Of a stretch of DNA of 64,000 nt, positions 12,523-61,826 are shown piece by piece. The notes under the pieces were generated by a model. The model made no database searches and was not told the DNA's origin. It saw only the letters and a program-made list of their open reading frames with translations. A program made the translations under genes and the position numbers. The stretch comes from the human T2T-CHM13v2.0 reference genome, Homo sapiens. Numbering within the stretch: position 1 is the first letter of the stretch; every line of letters begins with the position of its first letter. Location of the stretch: the NCBI RefSeq assembly GCF_009914755.1, contig NC_060926.1. The stretch is one strand, 5' to 3'.

Positions 12523-14511
12523 TTTTGAGAATTTGTTTCAAGATTTAGAGCAGCTCTTGTAGTGCTGGCTTGGTAATGGCGAATTCTCTCAGCATTTGTT
12601 TGTCTGAAAAAGACTGTCTTTCCTTCATTTATGAAGCTTAGTTTCACTGGATACAAAATTTTTGGCTGACAATTTTTTTGTTTAAGGAGGCTAAAGATAG
12701 GATGCCAATCCCTTCTAGCTTGTAAGGCTTCTGCTGACAAGTCTGCTGTTAATCTGATAGGCTTTCCTTTATAAGTTACTTGGTACTTTTGTCTCACAGC
12801 TCTTAAGATTCTTTCCTTCATCTTGATTTTACTTAACCTGGTGACTATGTGCCTAAGTGATGATTTTTTTGCAATTAATTTCCAAGGTGTTCTTTGAGCT
12901 TCTTGTATCTGGATGTCTAGATCTCTAGCAAGGCTGGGGAAATTTTCCTTGATTATTCCCTCAAATATGCTTTCCAGACTTTTAGATTTCTCTTCTTCCT
13001 TGGGAACACCAATTATTCTTAGGTTTGGTCATTTAATGTAATTCCAAACTTTTTGGATGCTTTGTTTATTTTTTAAAATTATTTTTTCTATGTCTTTGTT
13101 GGATTGGGTTAATTGAAAAGCCTTGTCTTTGAGCTCTGCGGTTCTTTCTTCTACTTATTTGATTCTATCACTGAGACTTTTCAGTGAATTTTGCAATTCT
13201 CTATTCATTTCCAGAAGCTGTGATTATTTTTTATTTATGCTATTTATTTCACTGGAGGTTTTTCCATTCATATCTTGTATCTTTTTTGTTAATTTCTTTA
13301 AGTGGGACTTTACCTTTCTCTGATGTCATCTTGAACTACTTAAGAGTCGATTTTCAGAATTCTTTTTCTGGAAATTAAGAGATTTCATCTTGGTTTGGAT
13401 CCATTGCTGGTGAGCTAGTGTGATCTTTTGGGGGTGTTAAACAAACTTGTTTTGTCATATTACCAAAACTGCTTTTCTGGTTCCTTCTCATTTGGTTAGA
13501 CTATGTCAGAGGGAAACTCTGGGACTCAAGGGCTGCTGATCAGATTCTTTTGACCCACAGGGTGCTCCCTTGATGTGGTTCTCTCTTCCCTCCCCTAGGA
13601 ATGGGGCTTCCAGAGAGCCAAACTGCAGTGGTTGTTATTTCTCTTCTGGATCTAGCACCCAGTGGAGATGCCAGGCTCTGGGTTGACACTGGAGAGTGTC
13701 TGCAAGGAGTCCTGTGATGTGATCTGTCTTCGGGTCTCTCAATTGTGGATACCAGCACCTGATCTGGTGAAGATAACAGGGGAGGGAAGTGTACTCTGTG
13801 AAGGTCCTTGATTGTATTTTTTTAAATGTGCTGGTTTTGTGTTGCTTGGCCTCCAGCCAGGAGGTGGCACTTTCAAGAGTGCATCAGCTGCAGTAGTATA
13901 GGGAGGATCAGGCAGTGGGTGGGGCCATAAAGCTCCCAAGAGATTATGTTCTTTGCCTTCAGAGTTCCTCAGCTGTACCATGGAGTCTACAACAGCAATC
14001 CACCCCCTTCAAAAGGCCATGGATTCTCTTGGCTTTTCAGGTACGTTCCAATGGTAATTCTTGGAACAAAAGTTCACAGTGTAGATCTCCACACACTGCT
14101 CAGGCAGTGGGTGCTGAAAGCTAGCCCTGCCTCCTGACTGCCATTTTCCTTCAATGATCTCCAGTATTGGATGTTAAACCCCTCATCTCCACTGGCTTTC
14201 ATGGCTTGCATGTCATCCAAGTTGCTCCTCTGGCTCTCCTCCTGTATATTTATTTCCTTCTTGTTTCATTTTTTTTAAATCACAGTTTCCTCAAGTTTTA
14301 CCCTTCATTCTAAGTCTTCTCCTTTATTCTTTCTCCCTGTATAATTTCACTCCTGCAATTTCATTTGCTCCCCATCTTTCCAACTTTATATCATCACACC
14401 TGAGGGTGCATTTGAGCTCCAGTTCTGCATTTTCAGGAGCCAATTACACAATCCCACATGCATTCCATGCAGGCTTTTTTTTTTCATACATAGATAGATA
14501 AATAGGTAATA

Positions 14512-15216
<705 letters not shown>

Positions 15217-15859
15217 GATAGATAGATAGAGATAAAGCTCTCTCTCTGTATATATGTATATATATAAATATGTAGTTATATATACATATGTTAGATACAT
15301 TTGTGTGTCTATATTTATAAATAACACCTTTCACTAAACGTTTTTATTTTATCTTTCTCCAACTCACTTAAATGAGTCCACAGAGTTGCCTGAACACAAA
15401 CTTTAGAGGTGAGAGCAATCCTGATTCTATCTTATTTCTCATATTCAATTGGTGATAAAGACCTATCATTTCAATCTCTCACATACCGCCCATCATTCAG
15501 GGTACTTACAAGTGCCTCCATACGGATATTCATCTCTTCAGTAAAAATTAACTCTTCTTACTGTATTTAAAGCACAGATCTGATTCGGTTTTTTTCCCCA
15601 CTAAATTCTTACCCTTTTCTAGGCTTATAAGATATTTAACCATTTAATCCTAACCTGACATTCCAAATTTATTGTCATTGCTTTTCCTCCAATTGTGATC
15701 TCTACCAAAGTATATACTTGACCTAACTAAGCCCTATCATTTTCTCTTTACCATTTCTTCCATGTGGATTCCCCTGTCTTTACTTGGCCTCGTGGAAAAT
15801 TCCTACTCATGTTAAAACACAAGATTTATGAAAGGCTCCTAATTTCCTAACATTCTATA

Positions 15860-16030
15860 AAGCCCTTTACATAAATTTTCTTATTTAATCTTCAAAACTA
15901 CCCTATGGCAAAAACATTTTTGCATTTCCATTTTACAGAAGAGGGAACTACAGACTAATGTGGATAAAAACCTTGTTCATGGGCATATCATTATCGTGTA
16001 GTAAAGTTTGTATTTGAACTCATACTTTTT
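15860..16030 (-). mobile_element. MIR
   Basis: 'cttatttaatcttcaaaactaccctatg...ccattttacagaagagggaacta'. Confidence 0.7.
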
Positions 16031-16189
16031 ACTATAAGCTATATTAGTCACTTCCAGTGCCAACTCATACAGTTTTTCCCCTGTAAATTCATTTGTGTTT
16101 CCCCTCTTCTCTTGCCATAATACTTATTACATCCCCTTGACCACAGAGCATACTTTTAAGCTTCTACTGTAGAATTTGTATATTTACAT

Positions 16190-16296
16190 GTAATTGTTGT
16201 GTCTAGTAATTGAGTATCTTGATAGCAGCCATTGTACCTTATTTGTATTTAAATCCAACATTAGTGCTTGGTAGATAGTAAGTTTTGTTGAATGAA
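16190..16296 (+). mobile_element. L2 3' end remnant
   Basis: 'ctagtaattgagtatcttgatagcag...agtgcttggtagatagtaagttttgttgaatgaa' resembles the L2 3' terminus. Confidence 0.55.
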
Positions 16297-16709
16297 AACT
16301 AAATAAAGAGATGACCCACAATAAAAGAAAGTATAATATTTTGGTCACTAACATAGGACAGTGATTATGTGTTTATTTTCTAGTTTGAAAACAATGGTAA
16401 AATACAAAAGAAAAAGTATTATTTATTTTCATATAAAAGATTTTATATGAACTGTATGAATCCTCTTATCCCTTTTCTCCAACATTCTAAACCCCATCCC
16501 TGAAACCTACCTAAAAATAAAATTCATGTAAAATGAAGAAGAGGAAATAGTGCCTTAAAAATTTCTAGCATCGATTCATATTACTCTTTTGAATTACTTT
16601 TAAAGTGTTCAGTTAAACCACTGTTTTGGAATTTTTTTAGCATATGAATTTTCTTGACAAATCATGTTGTGACATTTATAAAAAATATTATACCAGAAAT
16701 CCAGAGTTG
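16241..16709 (+). repeat. Left arm of a 469-bp inverted repeat
   Basis: Reverse complement of 17895-18363 with 6 substitutions and no indels by manual alignment. Confidence 0.96.
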
Positions 16710-17079
16710 CAGTGTCAAAAGTTATTTTAAAATATCCATGAGTAGGTAGACAGCCAATTACATTCCTGTAGTTTTCATCTACTGACCAGTGTAAATTATT
16801 ATATGGGGAGAGGATTATCCATGACGTAGAAATATCACTCTTTTCAGTAACTCTTCTCAAAGTCTGAGACATTTTCAGACTCTAATCACCTGGAAAGTGA
16901 AACACCAATTTTTCTCTTAAGTTGACAGGAAAATAACTTCTGTAACAGGTGCAAGGATCAATACAGAAGTTACATAGTATACAAAGTTTATCTCTTTTTA
17001 CCTCAAAAACTTCATTGTGGCCTATATGCTACTGGATAGTAAAAACTAACCTAAATAAACTAAAAAGCAAAGAAACCAG

Positions 17080-17200
17080 TGTTGTAGGTGGTCAGTTCAG
17101 GTTCTTGACTTTGCCACACAAAAGAATTTGTGAGTCCAAAGTAAGAGTAAGCAAAGAAGTTTATTGCAAAGGAAAAGTAACACTCTGAGAGGCAGAGCAT
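17080..17200 (-). mobile_element. ERV LTR fragment in the inverted-repeat spacer
   Basis: 'ttcaggttcttgactttgccacacaaaagaattt...gcaaagaagtttattgcaaag' resembles an antisense ERV1 LTR end including its polyA signal. Confidence 0.5.
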
Positions 17201-17894
17201 CTTATACGTCTGTAAAGATTCTAAAACACAACTTCTAATATCTGGCTTCCACCAAATTATCAAAAAATACATATTCTATGTCTTCTTCCTGAACCTAATG
17301 AATCAGGATTATTAAAGAGGGTACCCAGATATTGTATGTAGTTTTATTCCACCTCAGTATTTCAAACTCTTATGCATGAATGTCCTTTGAGTACTGCTGC
17401 TTTACTGTAACCCATTTAGGATGGAAAACAAATGAGAAATCAAAAGAACTGTTACACTAACAGCCAAGTACACTGTACTTCCTACTATGAAGATTACCTT
17501 GATATATTGAAAGAAATAAGAACTAAGCCTACTTAATGATTTTAAATTATTAGTCACAAAAATGACATTTATCCTATTCTCCATCTATGACTGGGACTGT
17601 CACTATTTGTGCTCAACCTGTTTCATCAACTCCTATCTGAACTAGCTAAAGGAACAGGCTAAGTGGGCATTTGTCTGGAGTAGTCAAATATCACTCAATT
17701 GTAAAGAAATGGAGAAAATTGATGAGACCTCCTCTCAGAAGAGTTCTGAGTATGTTTGGTAGTAATAATTTGATAAACTCCTTGCTGGTTATATGGGGCG
17801 GCAGTGAAGAGAAATGGACTGATGACACAGAACACCTAAGGGTAAAGGACAGATTTTTGTACACTTACTTGATAACCACCCCTCTGACACATCC

Positions 17895-18363
17895 CAACTC
17901 TGGATTTCTGGTATAATATTTTTTATAAATGTCACAACATGATTTGTCAAGAAAATTCATATGCTAAAAAAATTCCAAAACAGTGGTTTAACTGAACACT
18001 TTAAAAGTAATTCAAAAGAGTAATATGAATCAATGCTAGAAATTTTTAAGGCACTATCTCCTCTTCTTCATTTTACATGAATTTTATTTTTAGGTAGGTT
18101 TCAGGGATGGGGTTTAGAATGTTGGAGAAAAGGGATAAGAGGATTCATACAGTTCATATAAAATCTTTTATGTGAAAATAAATAATATTTTTTCTTTTGT
18201 ATTTTACCATTGTTTTCAAACTAGAAAATAAACACATAATCACTGTCTTATGTTAGTGACCAAAATATTATAGTTTCTTTTATTGTGGGTCATCTCTTTA
18301 TTTAGTTTTCATTCAACAAAACTTACTATCTACCAAGCACTAATGTTGGATTTAAATACAAAT
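17895..18363 (-). repeat. Right arm of a 469-bp inverted repeat
   Basis: caactctggatttctgg...ggatttaaatacaaat is the reverse complement of 16241-16709. Confidence 0.96.
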
Positions 18364-20394
18364 CCAAACTATTATATCTGGAATAATAGTTTGATATGCA
18401 ATTTTTAATTAATCAAAGCTCCTCCTATGTTGGAATTTAGAATAAGAAAAAGTCTATGGAATATTACTTTATACTATTCGGAGTATAAATATTTCAAATA
18501 GCTAAAGTTCTTTTAAACGGTAATCATTCATGAATCATGTGTGCTTATTTTCTTTAATCAAATTTATTTTGTGTATATAAAATAATGTGTGTCATTTTGT
18601 TGGGGGTATTAAAATTGTTCAAGAAGACAACTTTTCCAAAAATCTGTAAGCATAATGAACCCTTAAAATTAACAGTACTAGCTACTTACAAATAATTTCT
18701 GTCCATTCATTAGGGTAAGCTATTTCAAACTTACGTTAGGAAGCATTTCTAGAGCCCATATTTGAGCTAATCTTCATATTTGGAAGTTAAAAAGCTTAAG
18801 ATGTAAAGTATCTTGCAAATATGTACTGAACAACTTGCTATTTTTAATGTCTGAATATCAACTTTTTATCTTTATATTTTCTAATATAAAATGCTTATTT
18901 TTTATTTTTAATATAAGTATTAATTTGATATGTTTAGGTTATATTTTGTGATTTATTTTATATATGTATATTTTTAATTTCACTATTTTGCTGAAAGTAA
19001 GAAAACTCATGGTACCAAGATAAGAAATATACCCAGCCTCATCTTGGTATTGTTTCAGAAAGAAATCAGATGGTTTGTGATTACTTCTTGCTATGACGTT
19101 TGCTTGCAATATTTCATTGCTCTCTCCTGTGACATTGGAGGACACCATCTTGATGTCAATAAACTTGTCTATGTTTCTGCAAATCAGACTAGCTTTCTCT
19201 TACCCTAGGACCCCAAGGATCCTATAACTAGTAAGTAGATATTTTTAAATATATATTAATGTTGAATTGTTCAAAATGTTATTGATTATTCTACTTCTTT
19301 GTGGTTGCTGCTTGGGTAAAATTATATCCAAATTAACTGAAATAAATATTGAACATTCTTCCCAAATATTTTTTAAACATTGTTTTATTAATATCCAAAT
19401 TTCTCTATTAGATCAGTAAAAAGATAGTTACTACTCTTTGTCCTTAAATACCCCTTTTTATATAATATGTGAATTATTGCCTCAGGAATATAATATTCTA
19501 GCCTGTACTATTCTGTACCTTTCAGGATACTGAACACAATGACACTTTGACTTTTATGCTCATTTAAAGTATTGACTATTTTATGAGACAGAGAAAATGA
19601 CACAGCATTTCTTTACAGACTTTTTTTTTGTTTGCTGATTTCACTCTTATCCTATTTGATCAGAGAATCGTTATCTTTCCTGACATCACATTTTATATTC
19701 ATAGAGAATTATTTTTTAAGGTGTCATCATTGAAATTTTTTAAATGGACTTTACAGTTAAATGTAAACACAATCTGGTTCTCCATAGTCACTGTAAATGT
19801 TTTGCTTCACTATTTAACTGAATACACTTTTTGTAAAATTTTATTTACCTTCTTTTAAATTTGGATTGTGTAAGTTTTACGTTTCAGATATCTTCTATGA
19901 AAATAAAAGTAATTTTACATAATATGGCAACAAATGACTTCAACAAAGTGCTGTGGTTCATAATATATTTTTACTAAAGGTTAGAAAACAGCAGAGGGTA
20001 GTTGGGAAAATGAGAAAGGAGCAGCTTTTAACTGAACACCAGATAACTTTAAAAAAATTTATTGGTCTTTATTCTTTATAGAGAACCTTGTACAAACTAT
20101 GAAGCCTCAAGTTCCATAACTGTGATTATCTTCCTTAGCCCTGCTTTCTCCTTCAAGGCCTTTCTTTTATATTTCCCCTTATATAAGTTCTTCTCTTGGC
20201 TCTACAGTTAATAGGATAAAAATTGGAACCTCTCTCCTCTTATTATCGACAAAATACTGGATTATTTTTCCCAATACAAACCTCCTTCTTCTACACTATG
20301 TAAATGGGGCCATTTGTTTTATCACCCCAAACACGTTTTTATGACTTGGAAACTAAGAAGACGTCTACCATGAATAGCAATACATTTACAACTA

Positions 20395-20600
20395 CAAAGA
20401 CTCGATAATTGATTGGATATAGAATTAGAGAGAGGAAGCATTAAGAATAATTTTTAGATTTCTGGAACTGAGCACCTTGGAGTTCTTTATTGAAATAGAT
20501 AGTATAGCCAAAAGCAATTTTGGGGAGAAGATGATGGAATCAGTGTTGGACGCATCAATTTTTGAAGTATTGAATGGATTACTGTAGGGCTGGGATTTTA
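20395..20600 (-). mobile_element. L2 fragment
   Basis: 'ataattgattggatatag...gaataatttttagatttctggaactgagcacc' is typical antisense L2. Confidence 0.6.
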
Positions 20601-21980
20601 CCTGGCTGGGGCTACAGATGATAATGGGGCAAAGGATTCGAGAGTGTTGGCAAAAGAATAGTTGGGTGGAGCAAAGGATTTGAGAATATTGGCCAAAGAA
20701 TAGTTGGTTGAAACAATGTGACACAAGGTTTGAGTTATTTAGGGAAGCAGGTGAAAACTAAATGGAATTAATAGGAAAAGGTAGAGGGGTAAAGGAACTA
20801 AAGATTTCAGTATGCTTAAAGAACAAATAGATAATGTGAGAGTTGGAAGAATGAATGCTAGTTTAAGGATTTCGTAAGTAATTCTGGGAGATGACTGAAT
20901 GGGCATGGATGGGTAAAATATAACCAATGTTGTTAGTGTTATAAAAGTAAACAGTAAATAGCTGAAAATCTGGACATATTATTTTGCATTATCAAAGGAC
21001 ACCAGAATGATGGCAAGATTTAAGTTAGAAAAGAAGTATTTGAATAATGAGAAGCCATGCAATTGACAGATGAAAATGATAATACGAGAACGATCTCATT
21101 TATTAGATTGAGCTTAATTTCAAAGGAGGTTTTATCTAGTGTTGTTGGAGCACCAGTGATCTGGAAGTTGCACTGAGTATTCAGGGGCATGCTAAGACCA
21201 CTTCAAGCCCCAAATTAATGGAGTATAGAAGAATAAGTGAAGTCCAATGTAGAGGGTGGATAGGAAAGTAATCCCTCAGAAAAAAAAGCTAGAATTCGTT
21301 TATGAGAAGAAGAAACAGTATATGCATAAACTAGTGGTCGACACAATGTATTTTTGAAGATAGTTGTATCAGAGGACAAAGAAGAAAGGTTGGGAAGGAG
21401 GCAGACAGTGGAAATCTGGCTTAGATACAAGAAATCACAGGCCATATATAGATGAATGCATGGGGAGATGGACATGTCAGCGGTCAGGGGAATTACTTTA
21501 GGAAAATGGCCAAGGATGGTGTTGACATGAGGTTTGCTGTAGTGATCTGGCTTTACAAGTAAGTACTTCTTCATCATTCTCTAAAGAAATAGGATAAATT
21601 TTACCTTTGTTGAGAAAATGTCCCTCACCCTGGTAGCAGCAATAATGGGGCTAATTATTTTACAGGATCCTCACCATAATTAGCAAATAGCACATACCTA
21701 GGAAATTTTTATTATATTCATTAAATCATTATGAATATTTATTAAATACTTCTATTCCAGACACTGTTGTAGAAATTACAGTTACAACAATTAGCAAGGC
21801 AAACAAGGTCCTGGCTTCCAAGGAGCTAAGCCTATGGAGCACATACTGATGTGAAAGTGCCCCTCTCTCTGACAGGAAGTTGGAAATGAACTGTTGACCA
21901 AAGTCCTTGAGTAACAAGAGACTTGAGTTTCTTGAGAAAAACTCCCTAGGCCCACTGAGGAGGAAGGATTGGCTAAACTG

Positions 21981-22854
<874 letters not shown>

Positions 22855-39890: not shown

Positions 39891-40009
39891 CTCTTCTAAA
39901 TGGTCTCTCTTATTTCTACTCTCGCCCTTCTATTGTCCATTCTTCTCCTTTTTTTTTTCTTTCAGTTAATAAAATTGTGTTAGGGAATTCTGTTCAGTAG
40001 ATTTTCTTT

Positions 40010-40462
40010 CCTTTTCTTAATTATACTTTAAGTTCTGGGGTACATGTGCAGAACGTGCAGTTTTGTTACATAGGTATACATGTGCCACAGTGGTTTGCTG
40101 CACCCATTAACTCATCACCTACATTAGGTATTTATCCTAATGTTATCCCTCCCCTAACCCCCACTCCCAGACAGGCCCTGGTGTGTGATGTTTTTCTCCC
40201 TGTGTCCATGTGTTCTCATTGTTCACCTCCCACTTATGAGTGAGAACATGGTGTGTTTGATTTTCTGTTCTTTAGTTAGTTTGCTGAGAATCATGGTTTC
40301 CAGCTTCATCCATGTCCCTGCAAAGGACATGAACTCATCCTTTTTTATGGCTGCATAGTATTTATTCCATGATGTACATGTGCCACATTTTCTTTATCCA
40401 GTCTATCATTGATGGACATTTATGTTGGTTCCAAGTCTTTGCTATTGTGAATAGTGCTGCAA
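40010..40462 (-). mobile_element. 5'-truncated L1PA (about PA6-8) 3' end
   Basis: 'ttatactttaagttctggggtacatgtgcagaacgtgcag' and the antisense ORF2 C-terminus. Confidence 0.92.
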
Positions 40463-54500: not shown

Positions 54501-55908
54501 TAGCTTCAGATATTTATTGTATCTTTTGTAAGACATTTACAAATAAATTAATTCTTTTTAATTCCAGGTAAAATTTCCAATTTTTTTTTTTAATGATCTT
54601 GGCTTTGAGTTGATGAAATACTCCTTTGGAAACTGAAGTCTATAGTTGAGATTAATAAAGTTCTCGTGCTTTTAGTGTCAAAATTGCAGATCTGAAATGT
54701 TGAACCAAAATGGAACATCTTTCAAAAGCTGAAGAATGAAATCCTTTAAAATTATATGTGTGTCTTTAAAGCTCCATAAATCATTCTTTTAAAATAAATA
54801 ATTCAGTCCTAATTTTATTCACTTATAAAAGAGAATAAACTCGAAGCATTATTAGAGTAATTACTTTTTTTAATGAACTGAGTTCAGAATATCTATAAAG
54901 ATTTCTTTTTTCTAGTGAAATTTAAAGGTATGCATAATTAATATTAACTGAATAGATACTTTAGATATTAGTGGTTGAACTGTACTCTTGAAAAAGGAAA
55001 TTTATGCAACCAGCGTAGCAGGTAGTAGAAATGGTTATTGTCAAACTTTAAATTAGCAATCTTTTGATAAAAAAGCAAATAAAAGACATTAAATATTCAA
55101 GCCTAAAATAGGAAAATTGAGAAAAAATTATAATTTTAATAAATGTGTTTTTCCCAAGTTCAATATTGGCACCGCAATAATGTTTTTCTCCTATTAAAAG
55201 TAACCAATTCATTCATCAAAACTCTGTAGTACTTAATAGTTTACCTTATTCTTTGTTCTTTCTGATTTCACATCTATCAATCAAAACTACTGCAGTAAAT
55301 GCTAGCCTAGTGCCCAGTTTCAATAATCAAGAAGAAGTCACAGTGAATCATGATGAAATTTGAATTTAACAGGAGTAACTGGAATGAGAAAAAATATTAG
55401 GATTCCATAGGAATAGTAAGTGGTCGATTACAAGAACAAACTATAACCCATATTCTCTATCTAAAAAGGTGTCTGAAACCAATCAATATATAAAGAGTTT
55501 CTATATGGGACTAGAGTTTAGAACAGGTTAAATGTAATACCGTGGTCCTGGGCTGGGAAGTGGATTCACAGTAACACTTTGGGAAGAGGATGAGAATCTA
55601 TATATAAGTGGATTGGAAACATACTCCCAGTGAAATGGTCTAAAAGGAACAAATGCGAGTGGAATTGTTCCAGGTCACTGAATTGGTGTTCAATGTAGTA
55701 TGCAAGCTCTGGAGAAATTAAAATGCTAGAAATGGGAAAATTAGGCCAATTGACAGTTAAAATGAACAAACTCGACATGTGAAATATGGGCAAGCTTGGT
55801 TAGAACACAGGTGGCAAGTAATTGCCTCTGGCAAACAATGTAATAGATTTACAAATCAATACAAATACAAATCTTAATATACTTTCTAGGGAGGTCTAAG
55901 TATTAAAT

Positions 55909-60992: not shown

Positions 60993-61319
<327 letters not shown>

Positions 61320-61524: not shown

Positions 61525-61826
<302 letters not shown>

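What the first reader, a model, noticed from the sequence alone, without database searches (positions are those of the whole stretch)
16241..18363. Young 469-bp inverted duplication of largely unique sequence around a 1185-bp spacer
Seen: 16241-16709 and 17895-18363 are reverse complements of equal length, with 6 substitutions (5 transitions) and no indels by hand count (~98.7%). The arms are not a pair of Alus or L1s. I see no transposase or TSD, so they are unlikely to be transposon TIRs. Established: highly identical inverted repeats mediate recurrent NAHR inversions, are homogenised by gene conversion, and form long dsRNA when transcribed. Inference: the spacer 16710-17894 may be a polymorphic or recurrent inversion, and any read-through transcript would fold into a ~470-bp non-Alu stem (ADAR, Dicer or MDA5 substrate). 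About 1.3% divergence implies a hominid-era origin, or an older one kept similar by conversion.
Basis: partly seen in the sequence, partly recalled or inferred. Interest (0 to 1): 0.8.

Follow-up and report, generated by a model that had tools for sequence, protein, structure and literature searches.

The report
Small local inverted duplication, human chr2
A 469-base stretch of otherwise unique human DNA was copied once, in reverse orientation, about 1.2 kb from the original; this is a real but ordinary example of the commonest kind of small inversion-type rearrangement in human genomes.

Summary
Arms 16241-16709 and 17895-18363 are 469-nt reverse complements with 6 substitutions (5 transitions, 1 transversion) and no indels, around a 1185-bp spacer.

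The arm sequence occurs only at these two places in the whole T2T-CHM13 assembly. There is no target-site duplication, no frame longer than 90 codons and no Pfam match above cut-off, and no Rfam match. It is therefore not a transposon. Homology stops sharply at all four arm ends.

It matches the published "inverted duplication" class: under 1 kb, inserted within 5 kb of the source copy, not retrotransposition-linked, thought to arise by replication error (PMC4617611; PMC12350158).

Arm divergence is 1.28% (95% CI 0.47-2.8%). That implies an origin roughly 2-28 Myr ago, depending on the rate used.

- **Polymorphic NAHR inversion.** No chr2 entry near my estimated hg38 position appears in a catalogue of 612 candidate IR-flanked inversions.
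- **Long dsRNA.** No annotated transcript covers the repeat.

No outgroup or second human haplotype was available. Which arm is the copy, and whether the spacer ever flipped, remain open. Interest is low.

The parts
16241..16709 (+). Left arm of the inverted duplication (469 nt, 26.7% G+C, one CpG)
   Evidence: only two copies in the whole assembly
16710..17894 (.). Spacer, 1185 nt, 35.4% G+C. Unique except for an interspersed repeat fragment of about 120 bp at about 17073-17199.
   Evidence: no open frame over 90 codons and no Pfam match above cut-off
17895..18363 (-). Right arm, reverse complement of the left arm with 6 substitutions and no indel
16200..16240 (.). Left outer flank. Unrelated to the right outer flank. 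No target-site duplication: the best shared direct word in the 30-nt flanks is 5 nt and does not abut the junction.
18364..18404 (.). Right outer flank: unique sequence, unrelated to the left outer flank

Best explanation
A single, old, local inverted duplication of unique intergenic DNA. One 469-bp segment was copied in reverse orientation 1185 bp away in one event. The most likely route is a replication-based template switch (FoSTeS/MMBIR type). In that model a stalled nascent strand re-primes on the opposite strand nearby, copies 469 nt backwards, then returns to its own template. The product has sat in the lineage long enough to collect 6 substitutions. It is most probably fixed, neutral and untranscribed. 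Shown: the structure, its uniqueness in the genome, its sharp ends, and the absence of transposon hallmarks. Inferred: the template-switch mechanism, fixation, neutrality, and which arm is the copy.
For: The arms are exactly equal in length with no indels, and all four ends are abrupt. Local alignment of the 40-nt inner and outer flanks scores no better than random window pairs (16% and 34% of null pairs score as high). A word-7 blastn of 4 kb on each side finds only the 469-bp match at a significant E-value; the next hit has E = 0.019 over 49 nt on the other strand. The arm has 2 matches in the 3.1-Gb assembly, both here. The spacer and the right flank are also unique, apart from one repeat fragment of about 120 bp in mid-spacer. 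Nine stop-to-stop frames of at least 50 codons overlap 16000-18600, the longest 90 codons. I scanned 8 of those 9 against Pfam, leaving out 15968-16120, which lies outside the structure. None of the 8 reached a curated cut-off. There is no Rfam match inside the repeat at E up to 1. The geometry fits the published class. [quoted passage not shown] They are described as not typically retrotransposition-linked and are attributed to replication errors. Passages of Schloissnig 2025 (PMC12350158) report 277 inverted duplications among 733 non-MEI inversions, median length 284 bp. Only 8.8% have breakpoint homology and most have 1-15 bp of microhomology, 'suggesting a replicative formation origin'.
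Against: No ancestral (pre-duplication) allele, ape sequence or second human haplotype could be examined. Junction microhomology, the signature of template switching, therefore cannot be scored, and neither fixation nor neutrality is shown. A staggered-break inversion with fill-in would leave exactly the same present-day structure. The hexamer GTGTCA lies 2 and 4 nt inside the spacer from the two inner junctions. Its null frequency is 1.8%, but I noticed it post hoc. It could mean slightly longer original arms or a priming site, and it remains unexplained.
Confidence: 0.7

Rival explanations
1. Inversion with breakpoint duplication. Staggered single-strand breaks flanked the 469-bp segment on one side and a break lay on the other side. 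The ends were filled in and the piece was re-ligated in reverse. The spacer was thus inverted at the moment the second arm was made.
For: The result would be identical to what is seen: equal arms, sharp ends and no TE features. The mechanism itself is recalled from the Drosophila inversion-breakpoint literature and comes from no call.
Against: Human surveys attribute small inverted duplications mainly to replicative processes. Nothing in the present sequence separates the two models.
Confidence: 0.2
2. The repeat is now an active NAHR substrate, and the 1185-bp spacer is a polymorphic or recurrently flipping inversion in humans.
For: Inversions with this geometry exist. I read 70 of the 612 rows of Table S1 of PMC13629690. 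Thirteen of those candidates have both IRs under 1 kb and an inverted segment under 5 kb, and 7 of the 13 are polymorphic. Examples are HsInv0193 (418-bp IRs, 618 bp), HsInv0061 (654/656 bp, 1674 bp) and HsInv0147 (140 bp, 1550 bp). Small IR-flanked inversions are easily missed: most of the 37 polymorphic inversions absent from Porubsky 2022 were rare and/or small.
Against: The 612-region catalogue has no chr2 entry at hg38 183.9-184.7 or 184.8-185.2 Mb. This rests on my estimate of the hg38 position. IR pairs chosen on structure alone were rarely polymorphic: 6 of 319 inverted SD pairs, or 1.9%. The two non-TE 'IR'-type candidates of similar geometry among the rows I read were both not polymorphic in 54 people: HsInv0062 (668/669 bp, 1015 bp) and HsInv0064 (520 bp, 4063 bp). 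The longest perfect tract between the arms is 137 bp, at or below recalled estimates of the minimal segment for efficient mammalian homologous recombination.
Confidence: 0.1
3. A much older inverted repeat whose arms are kept 98.7% alike by gene conversion.
For: Intrachromosomal inverted repeats are known to undergo conversion (established knowledge). All six differences lie in arm positions 90-331, leaving both ends clean.
Against: That clustering is not significant; by my calculation from the positions, P is about 0.12 for a range this narrow. An old repeat converted over part of its length should show diverged homology beyond the converted tract, and none is found with a word-7 blastn.
Confidence: 0.07
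4. The repeat is transcribed and acts as a long non-Alu hairpin RNA, serving as a source of endo-siRNA or a substrate for ADAR or MDA5.
For: If transcribed, either strand folds with 465-466 of 469 arm positions paired arm to arm (MFE -1017 and -1029 kcal/mol). That follows from the repeat itself.
Against: The hub's RefSeq table shows no gene, transcript or functional element over 16-18 kb. The only gene in the window starts at 55252 on the minus strand, so its 3' end lies about 37 kb away. No CpG island is present: 1 CpG in each arm and 3 in the spacer. No Rfam family matches. Expression data could not be consulted.
Confidence: 0.03
5. Assembly artefact, or a DNA transposon with long terminal inverted repeats.
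For: Artefact: fold-back chimeras do occur in long-read data (recalled). Transposon: terminal inverted repeats around a core resemble this layout.
Against: Artefact: fold-back chimeras give perfect palindromes without a spacer, whereas here there are 6 differences and a 1185-bp unique spacer. Transposon: this is the only copy in the genome, with no TSD and no transposase remnant.
Confidence: 0.02

Closest known systems
Small local inverted duplications ('Inverted Dup' / inv-dup class of the 1000 Genomes SV maps; Sudmant 2015, Schloissnig 2025)
   Same: The duplicated stretch is under 1 kb (469 bp). The inverted copy lies within 5 kb of the source (1185 bp). The sequence is non-repetitive and there are no retrotransposition hallmarks.
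   Different: The published cases are polymorphic insertions scored against the reference. Here both arms are in the assembly and have diverged by 1.28%, so the event is old and probably fixed. The ancestral single-copy allele has not been seen.
IR-flanked (NAHR) polymorphic inversions of the InvFEST/HsInv series, e.g. HsInv0193, HsInv0061 and the non-TE 'IR'-type candidates HsInv0062 and HsInv0064
   Same: Inverted repeats of a few hundred bp flank about 0.6-4 kb. HsInv0062 (668/669-bp IRs, 1015 bp) is nearly the same layout.
   Different: No second orientation is known for this locus, and it is not in the 612-region catalogue. HsInv0062 and HsInv0064 themselves proved non-polymorphic in 54 individuals.
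Segmental duplications (inverted SD pairs)
   Same: Intrachromosomal duplication of non-TE sequence at over 90% identity.
   Different: The arms are 469 bp, below the 1-kb length in the SD definition quoted in PMC11794170 and PMC13629690.
L1 twin-priming inversions (about 85% of inversions under 2 kb, per the abstract of the Porubsky preprint seen in the listing)
   Same: Small size and an inverted segment.
   Different: The arms are not L1. They have 2 genome matches, whereas the neighbouring Alu-bearing flank gave 4621 first-look candidates. Twin priming inverts part of an insertion and does not duplicate local unique DNA.

Membership tests
Local inverted duplication (inv-dup SV class) | Duplicated stretch shorter than about 1 kb | tested here: met
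   469 nt; criterion from PMC4617611
Local inverted duplication (inv-dup SV class) | Copy in inverted orientation within about 5 kb of the other copy | tested here: met
   1185-nt spacer, reverse complement
Local inverted duplication (inv-dup SV class) | Not produced by retrotransposition or a mobile element | tested here: met
   2 genome matches only; no TSD; no ORF or Pfam match above cut-off
Local inverted duplication (inv-dup SV class) | A single-copy ancestral allele exists (an outgroup or haplotype lacking one arm) | not testable with these tools
   No ape genome or second human haplotype is held. The region has no paralogue in the assembly that could serve as an outgroup.
Local inverted duplication (inv-dup SV class) | Microhomology of 1-15 bp at the novel junctions | tested here: inconclusive
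   This cannot be scored without the ancestral allele. The only signal is a hexamer shared 2 and 4 nt beyond the inner junctions, null frequency 1.8%, noticed post hoc.
IR-mediated (NAHR) polymorphic inversion | Inverted repeats at both breakpoints | tested here: met
IR-mediated (NAHR) polymorphic inversion | Both orientations of the spacer observed among individuals | not testable with these tools
   Only one haplotype was available. The catalogue look-up was negative, but it depends on an estimated hg38 position.
IR-mediated (NAHR) polymorphic inversion | Long uninterrupted identity for homologous exchange | tested here: inconclusive
   Identity tracts are 90, 24, 59, 15, 113, 25 and 137 bp. 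Catalogued inversions have IRs down to 140 bp.
DNA transposon / MITE with terminal inverted repeats | Target-site duplication abutting the ends | tested here: not met
   The best shared direct word in the 30-nt flanks is 5 nt and does not abut the junctions.
DNA transposon / MITE with terminal inverted repeats | Multiple copies in the genome | tested here: not met
   The arm occurs only at this locus. The spacer is unique apart from an unrelated 120-bp repeat.
DNA transposon / MITE with terminal inverted repeats | Transposase gene or remnant (autonomous form) | tested here: not met
   The longest stop-to-stop frame is 90 codons. 0 of 8 frames scanned reach a Pfam cut-off; the best is 15.7 bits against a 50-bit cut-off, for an unrelated family.
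Segmental duplication | At least 1 kb long at 90% identity or more | tested here: not met
   469 nt
Structured RNA gene (miRNA or other Rfam family) / hairpin-RNA locus | Match to a described RNA family; evidence of transcription | tested here: not met
   0 Rfam matches within 16241-18363 at E up to 1; all 5 matches in 14000-21000 lie at 14824-15313. Transcription was not testable, and nothing is annotated there in the hub's table.

The most novel reading that the evidence does not exclude
The repeat could be a live flip-flop. In this reading the 1185-bp spacer toggles by NAHR in human or ape lineages and has been missed because small IR-flanked inversions are hard to call. When read through, the locus would also yield a rare non-Alu perfect dsRNA of about 466 bp, in the gene desert that I estimate (from recalled gene coordinates, no call) lies upstream of ZNF804A.
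Probability: 0.08. Interest if true: 0.45.

Novelty: new member of a known kind. Interest (0 to 1): 0.15.

Why it matters
It matters little on its own. The locus is a clean, dated example of the commonest inversion-type rearrangement in human genomes, caught after it aged rather than as a polymorphism. It could serve as a rare-genomic-change marker for hominid phylogeny. It could also be a test case for whether a repeat of about 470 bp, 98.7% identical, can drive inversion of a 1.2-kb spacer. It lies in a gene desert with no annotated transcript or functional element, so no functional consequence is expected.

Tried and rejected
- **Ancestral arrangement from split repeats.** I tried to recover it from old repeats split by the junctions. 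This failed because arms, spacer ends and flanks are all unique; the only repeat is mid-spacer at about 17073-17199.
- **Paralogue as outgroup.** I looked for a paralogous copy elsewhere in the genome and found none.
- **Diverged homology beyond the arms.** I searched for it and found none.
- **Transposon.** Rejected.
- **Known RNA family.** Rejected.
- **Kronenberg 2018 great-ape SV paper.** Not held under the PMC id I recalled.
- **Sudmant 2015 supplements.** Only a PDF is readable; the table archive is too large, so I did not search it.
- **Schloissnig 2025 supplements.** I searched for CHM13 prefixes 18458 and 18459 and hg38 prefixes 18409-18412. There was no chr2 row, but the file was cut when stored, so this says little.
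- **Exact hg38 position.** I could not get one. I bracketed it from the statement that rs12465214 lies in an intron of LOC102724340, about 250 kb from ZNF804A (PMC8508958), together with ZNF804A coordinates recalled from memory.
- **Clustering of the six differences.** Not significant (P about 0.12, my calculation).

Full report
**1.
The repeat finder on 14000-21000 reports one inverted pair: 16241-16709 and 17895-18363, 469 nt, 1185 nt apart. My base-by-base comparison finds 6 differences and no indels, so 463 of 469 positions (98.72%) are complementary. Five differences are transitions and one is a G/C transversion. One transition lies in the arm's single CpG.

The arms are AT-rich (26.7% G+C). 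The spacer is 35.4% G+C and the window 35.3%. Across the whole window there are 11 inverted pairs of at least 150 nt within 20 kb. This is the only one above 87% complementarity; the other ten are 75-87%, and those I compared with the hub's list overlap stretches it gives as masked repeats.

**2. What it is not.**
The 469-nt arm has exactly two matches in the 3.1-Gb assembly, both at this locus. That search can detect common repeats: the Alu-bearing left flank gave 4621 first-look candidates.

The spacer is unique except for a fragment of about 120 bp at about 17073-17199. That fragment belongs to an interspersed family, with 40 scored copies at 80-88% identity out of 108 candidates. The 1.2 kb to the right is unique.

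- No target-site duplication is present. The best direct word shared by the 30-nt flanks is 5 nt and does not abut the junctions.
- Nine stop-to-stop frames of at least 50 codons overlap 16000-18600, the longest 90 codons. I scanned 8 of the 9, omitting 15968-16120, which lies outside the structure. None reached a Pfam cut-off; the best was 15.7 bits against a cut-off of 50.
- Rfam gives 5 matches at E up to 1 in 14000-21000. All lie at 14824-15313, in and just beyond the Alu region, and none is in the repeat.

So it is not a DNA transposon, an LTR element, an L1 twin-priming product or a known RNA gene. At 469 nt it is also below the 1-kb length that defines a segmental duplication.

**3. Anatomy of the ends.**
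Homology stops abruptly at all four ends. Local alignment of the 40 nt beyond the inner ends scores 8 and beyond the outer ends 7. Random 40-mer pairs from the window score as high 16% and 34% of the time.

A word-7 blastn of about 4 kb on each side finds only the 469-nt match. The next hit has E = 0.019, covers 49 nt, and is on the other strand. There is therefore no halo of older, diverged homology. This argues for one discrete event rather than a conversion tract inside an older, larger repeat.

One oddity is that GTGTCA lies 2 and 4 nt beyond the two inner junctions. A shared hexamer within the first 12 nt occurs in 1.8% of random pairs. I noticed this after looking, so I treat it as unexplained rather than as evidence.

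**4. Age.**
Six differences in 469 nt give 1.28% divergence (Poisson 95% CI 0.47-2.8%). At 0.5e-9 substitutions per site per year this is 12.8 Myr (4.7-27.8). At 1e-9 it is 6.4 Myr (2.3-13.9). Both rates are recalled values.

The divergence is about the human-chimpanzee level. Whether Pan shares the duplication is roughly even odds in my judgement. The 5:1 transition bias and the absence of indels are unremarkable for so few events.

**5. Closest known kind.**
I saw only passages of the two survey papers, not their tables.

- **Sudmant et al. 2015 (PMC4617611).** Of 229 sequence-resolved inversion sites, 54% were inverted duplications. [quoted passage not shown] The authors favour DNA replication errors.
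- **Schloissnig et al. 2025 (PMC12350158).** Inverted duplications are the most common class: 277 of 733 non-MEI inversions, median length 284 bp. Only 8.8% have breakpoint homology and most have 1-15 bp of microhomology, 'suggesting a replicative formation origin'.

The present structure (469 bp, 1185 bp away, unique sequence, no TE hallmarks) meets every feature of this class that I could test. The untestable features are the single-copy ancestral allele and the junction microhomology.

Genome-wide maps of inverted pairs of at least 200 bp and 80% identity exist for CHM13, with 627,791 pairs (Fernandez-Luna 2024, PMC11794170, sections read). By those criteria this pair is in scope. The pair lists are not in the supplements I could see, so I could not confirm it is listed.

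**6. Mechanism.**
My best reading (0.7 overall) is a one-step local inverted duplication, now old and probably fixed and neutral. I favour template switching during replication over the main rival, a staggered-break inversion with fill-in (0.2). The rival predicts that the spacer was inverted in the same event. The two leave identical products, so only an outgroup can separate them.

**7.

(a) *NAHR inversion.* It is physically plausible. I read 70 of the 612 rows of Table S1 of Moreira-Pinhal 2026 (PMC13629690). Thirteen of those candidates have both IRs under 1 kb and an inverted segment under 5 kb, and 7 of the 13 are polymorphic. An example is HsInv0193 (418-bp IRs, 618 bp). However, those candidates were ascertained from inversion calls. 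Several results point the other way:
- Pairs chosen on structure alone were rarely polymorphic: 6 of 319 inverted SD pairs, or 1.9%.
- The two non-TE 'IR'-type candidates most like this one, HsInv0062 and HsInv0064, were not polymorphic in 54 people.
- Number-prefix searches of that table found no chr2 row at hg38 183.9-184.7 or 184.8-185.2 Mb.
- The longest perfect tract between the arms is 137 bp.

The hg38 position is my estimate, about 184.0-184.3 Mb. I bracketed it from the statement that rs12465214 lies in LOC102724340, about 250 kb from ZNF804A, and from recalled ZNF804A coordinates. I put the probability of a polymorphic inversion at about 0.1.

(b) *dsRNA.* If transcribed, either strand pairs 465-466 of the 469 arm positions arm to arm (MFE about -1017 and -1029 kcal/mol). 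That follows from the repeat itself. The hub's RefSeq table shows no transcript or functional element there, and the sequence has almost no CpG. Expression and editing data could not be consulted. I put the probability at about 0.03.

**8. Verdict.**
This is a real feature, correctly described, and an ordinary member of a well-documented class of small rearrangements. I found no report of this particular locus. The searches behind that statement are the gene names (2 papers, neither about this repeat), the catalogue look-ups above, and the cut supplement. Novelty: new member of a known kind. Interest: 0.15.

Noticed in passing
window 61055-61283 and 61562-61790: A 229-nt inverted pair, 75% complementary and only 278 nt apart. 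It lies inside stretches the hub lists as masked repeats and inside the annotated span of lncRNA LOC105373777 (55252..118771, minus strand). Being closely spaced and within an annotated transcription unit, it is a likelier dsRNA former than the repeat under study.
   Followed up: no
window ~17073-17199 (spacer positions ~364-490): A fragment of about 120 bp from an interspersed repeat family. 40 copies were scored out of 108 candidates, at 80-88% identity, on many chromosomes. No tool named the family. It lies mid-spacer, so it says nothing about the junctions.
   Followed up: partly
window 20625-20708: Two tandem copies of a 42-nt unit, 86% alike.
   Followed up: no
window 14824-15106, minus strand: Two sub-threshold matches to metazoan SRP RNA (54 and 51 bits against a gathering score of 70), plus a mir-1268 match. 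They lie in a stretch the hub lists as masked (14766-15106). This is the usual signature of an Alu element.
   Followed up: no
window 22494-22854 and 40002-40362: A 361-nt inverted pair, 87% complementary and 17 kb apart. Both arms lie in masked stretches, so these are presumably two copies of one interspersed repeat family.
   Followed up: no
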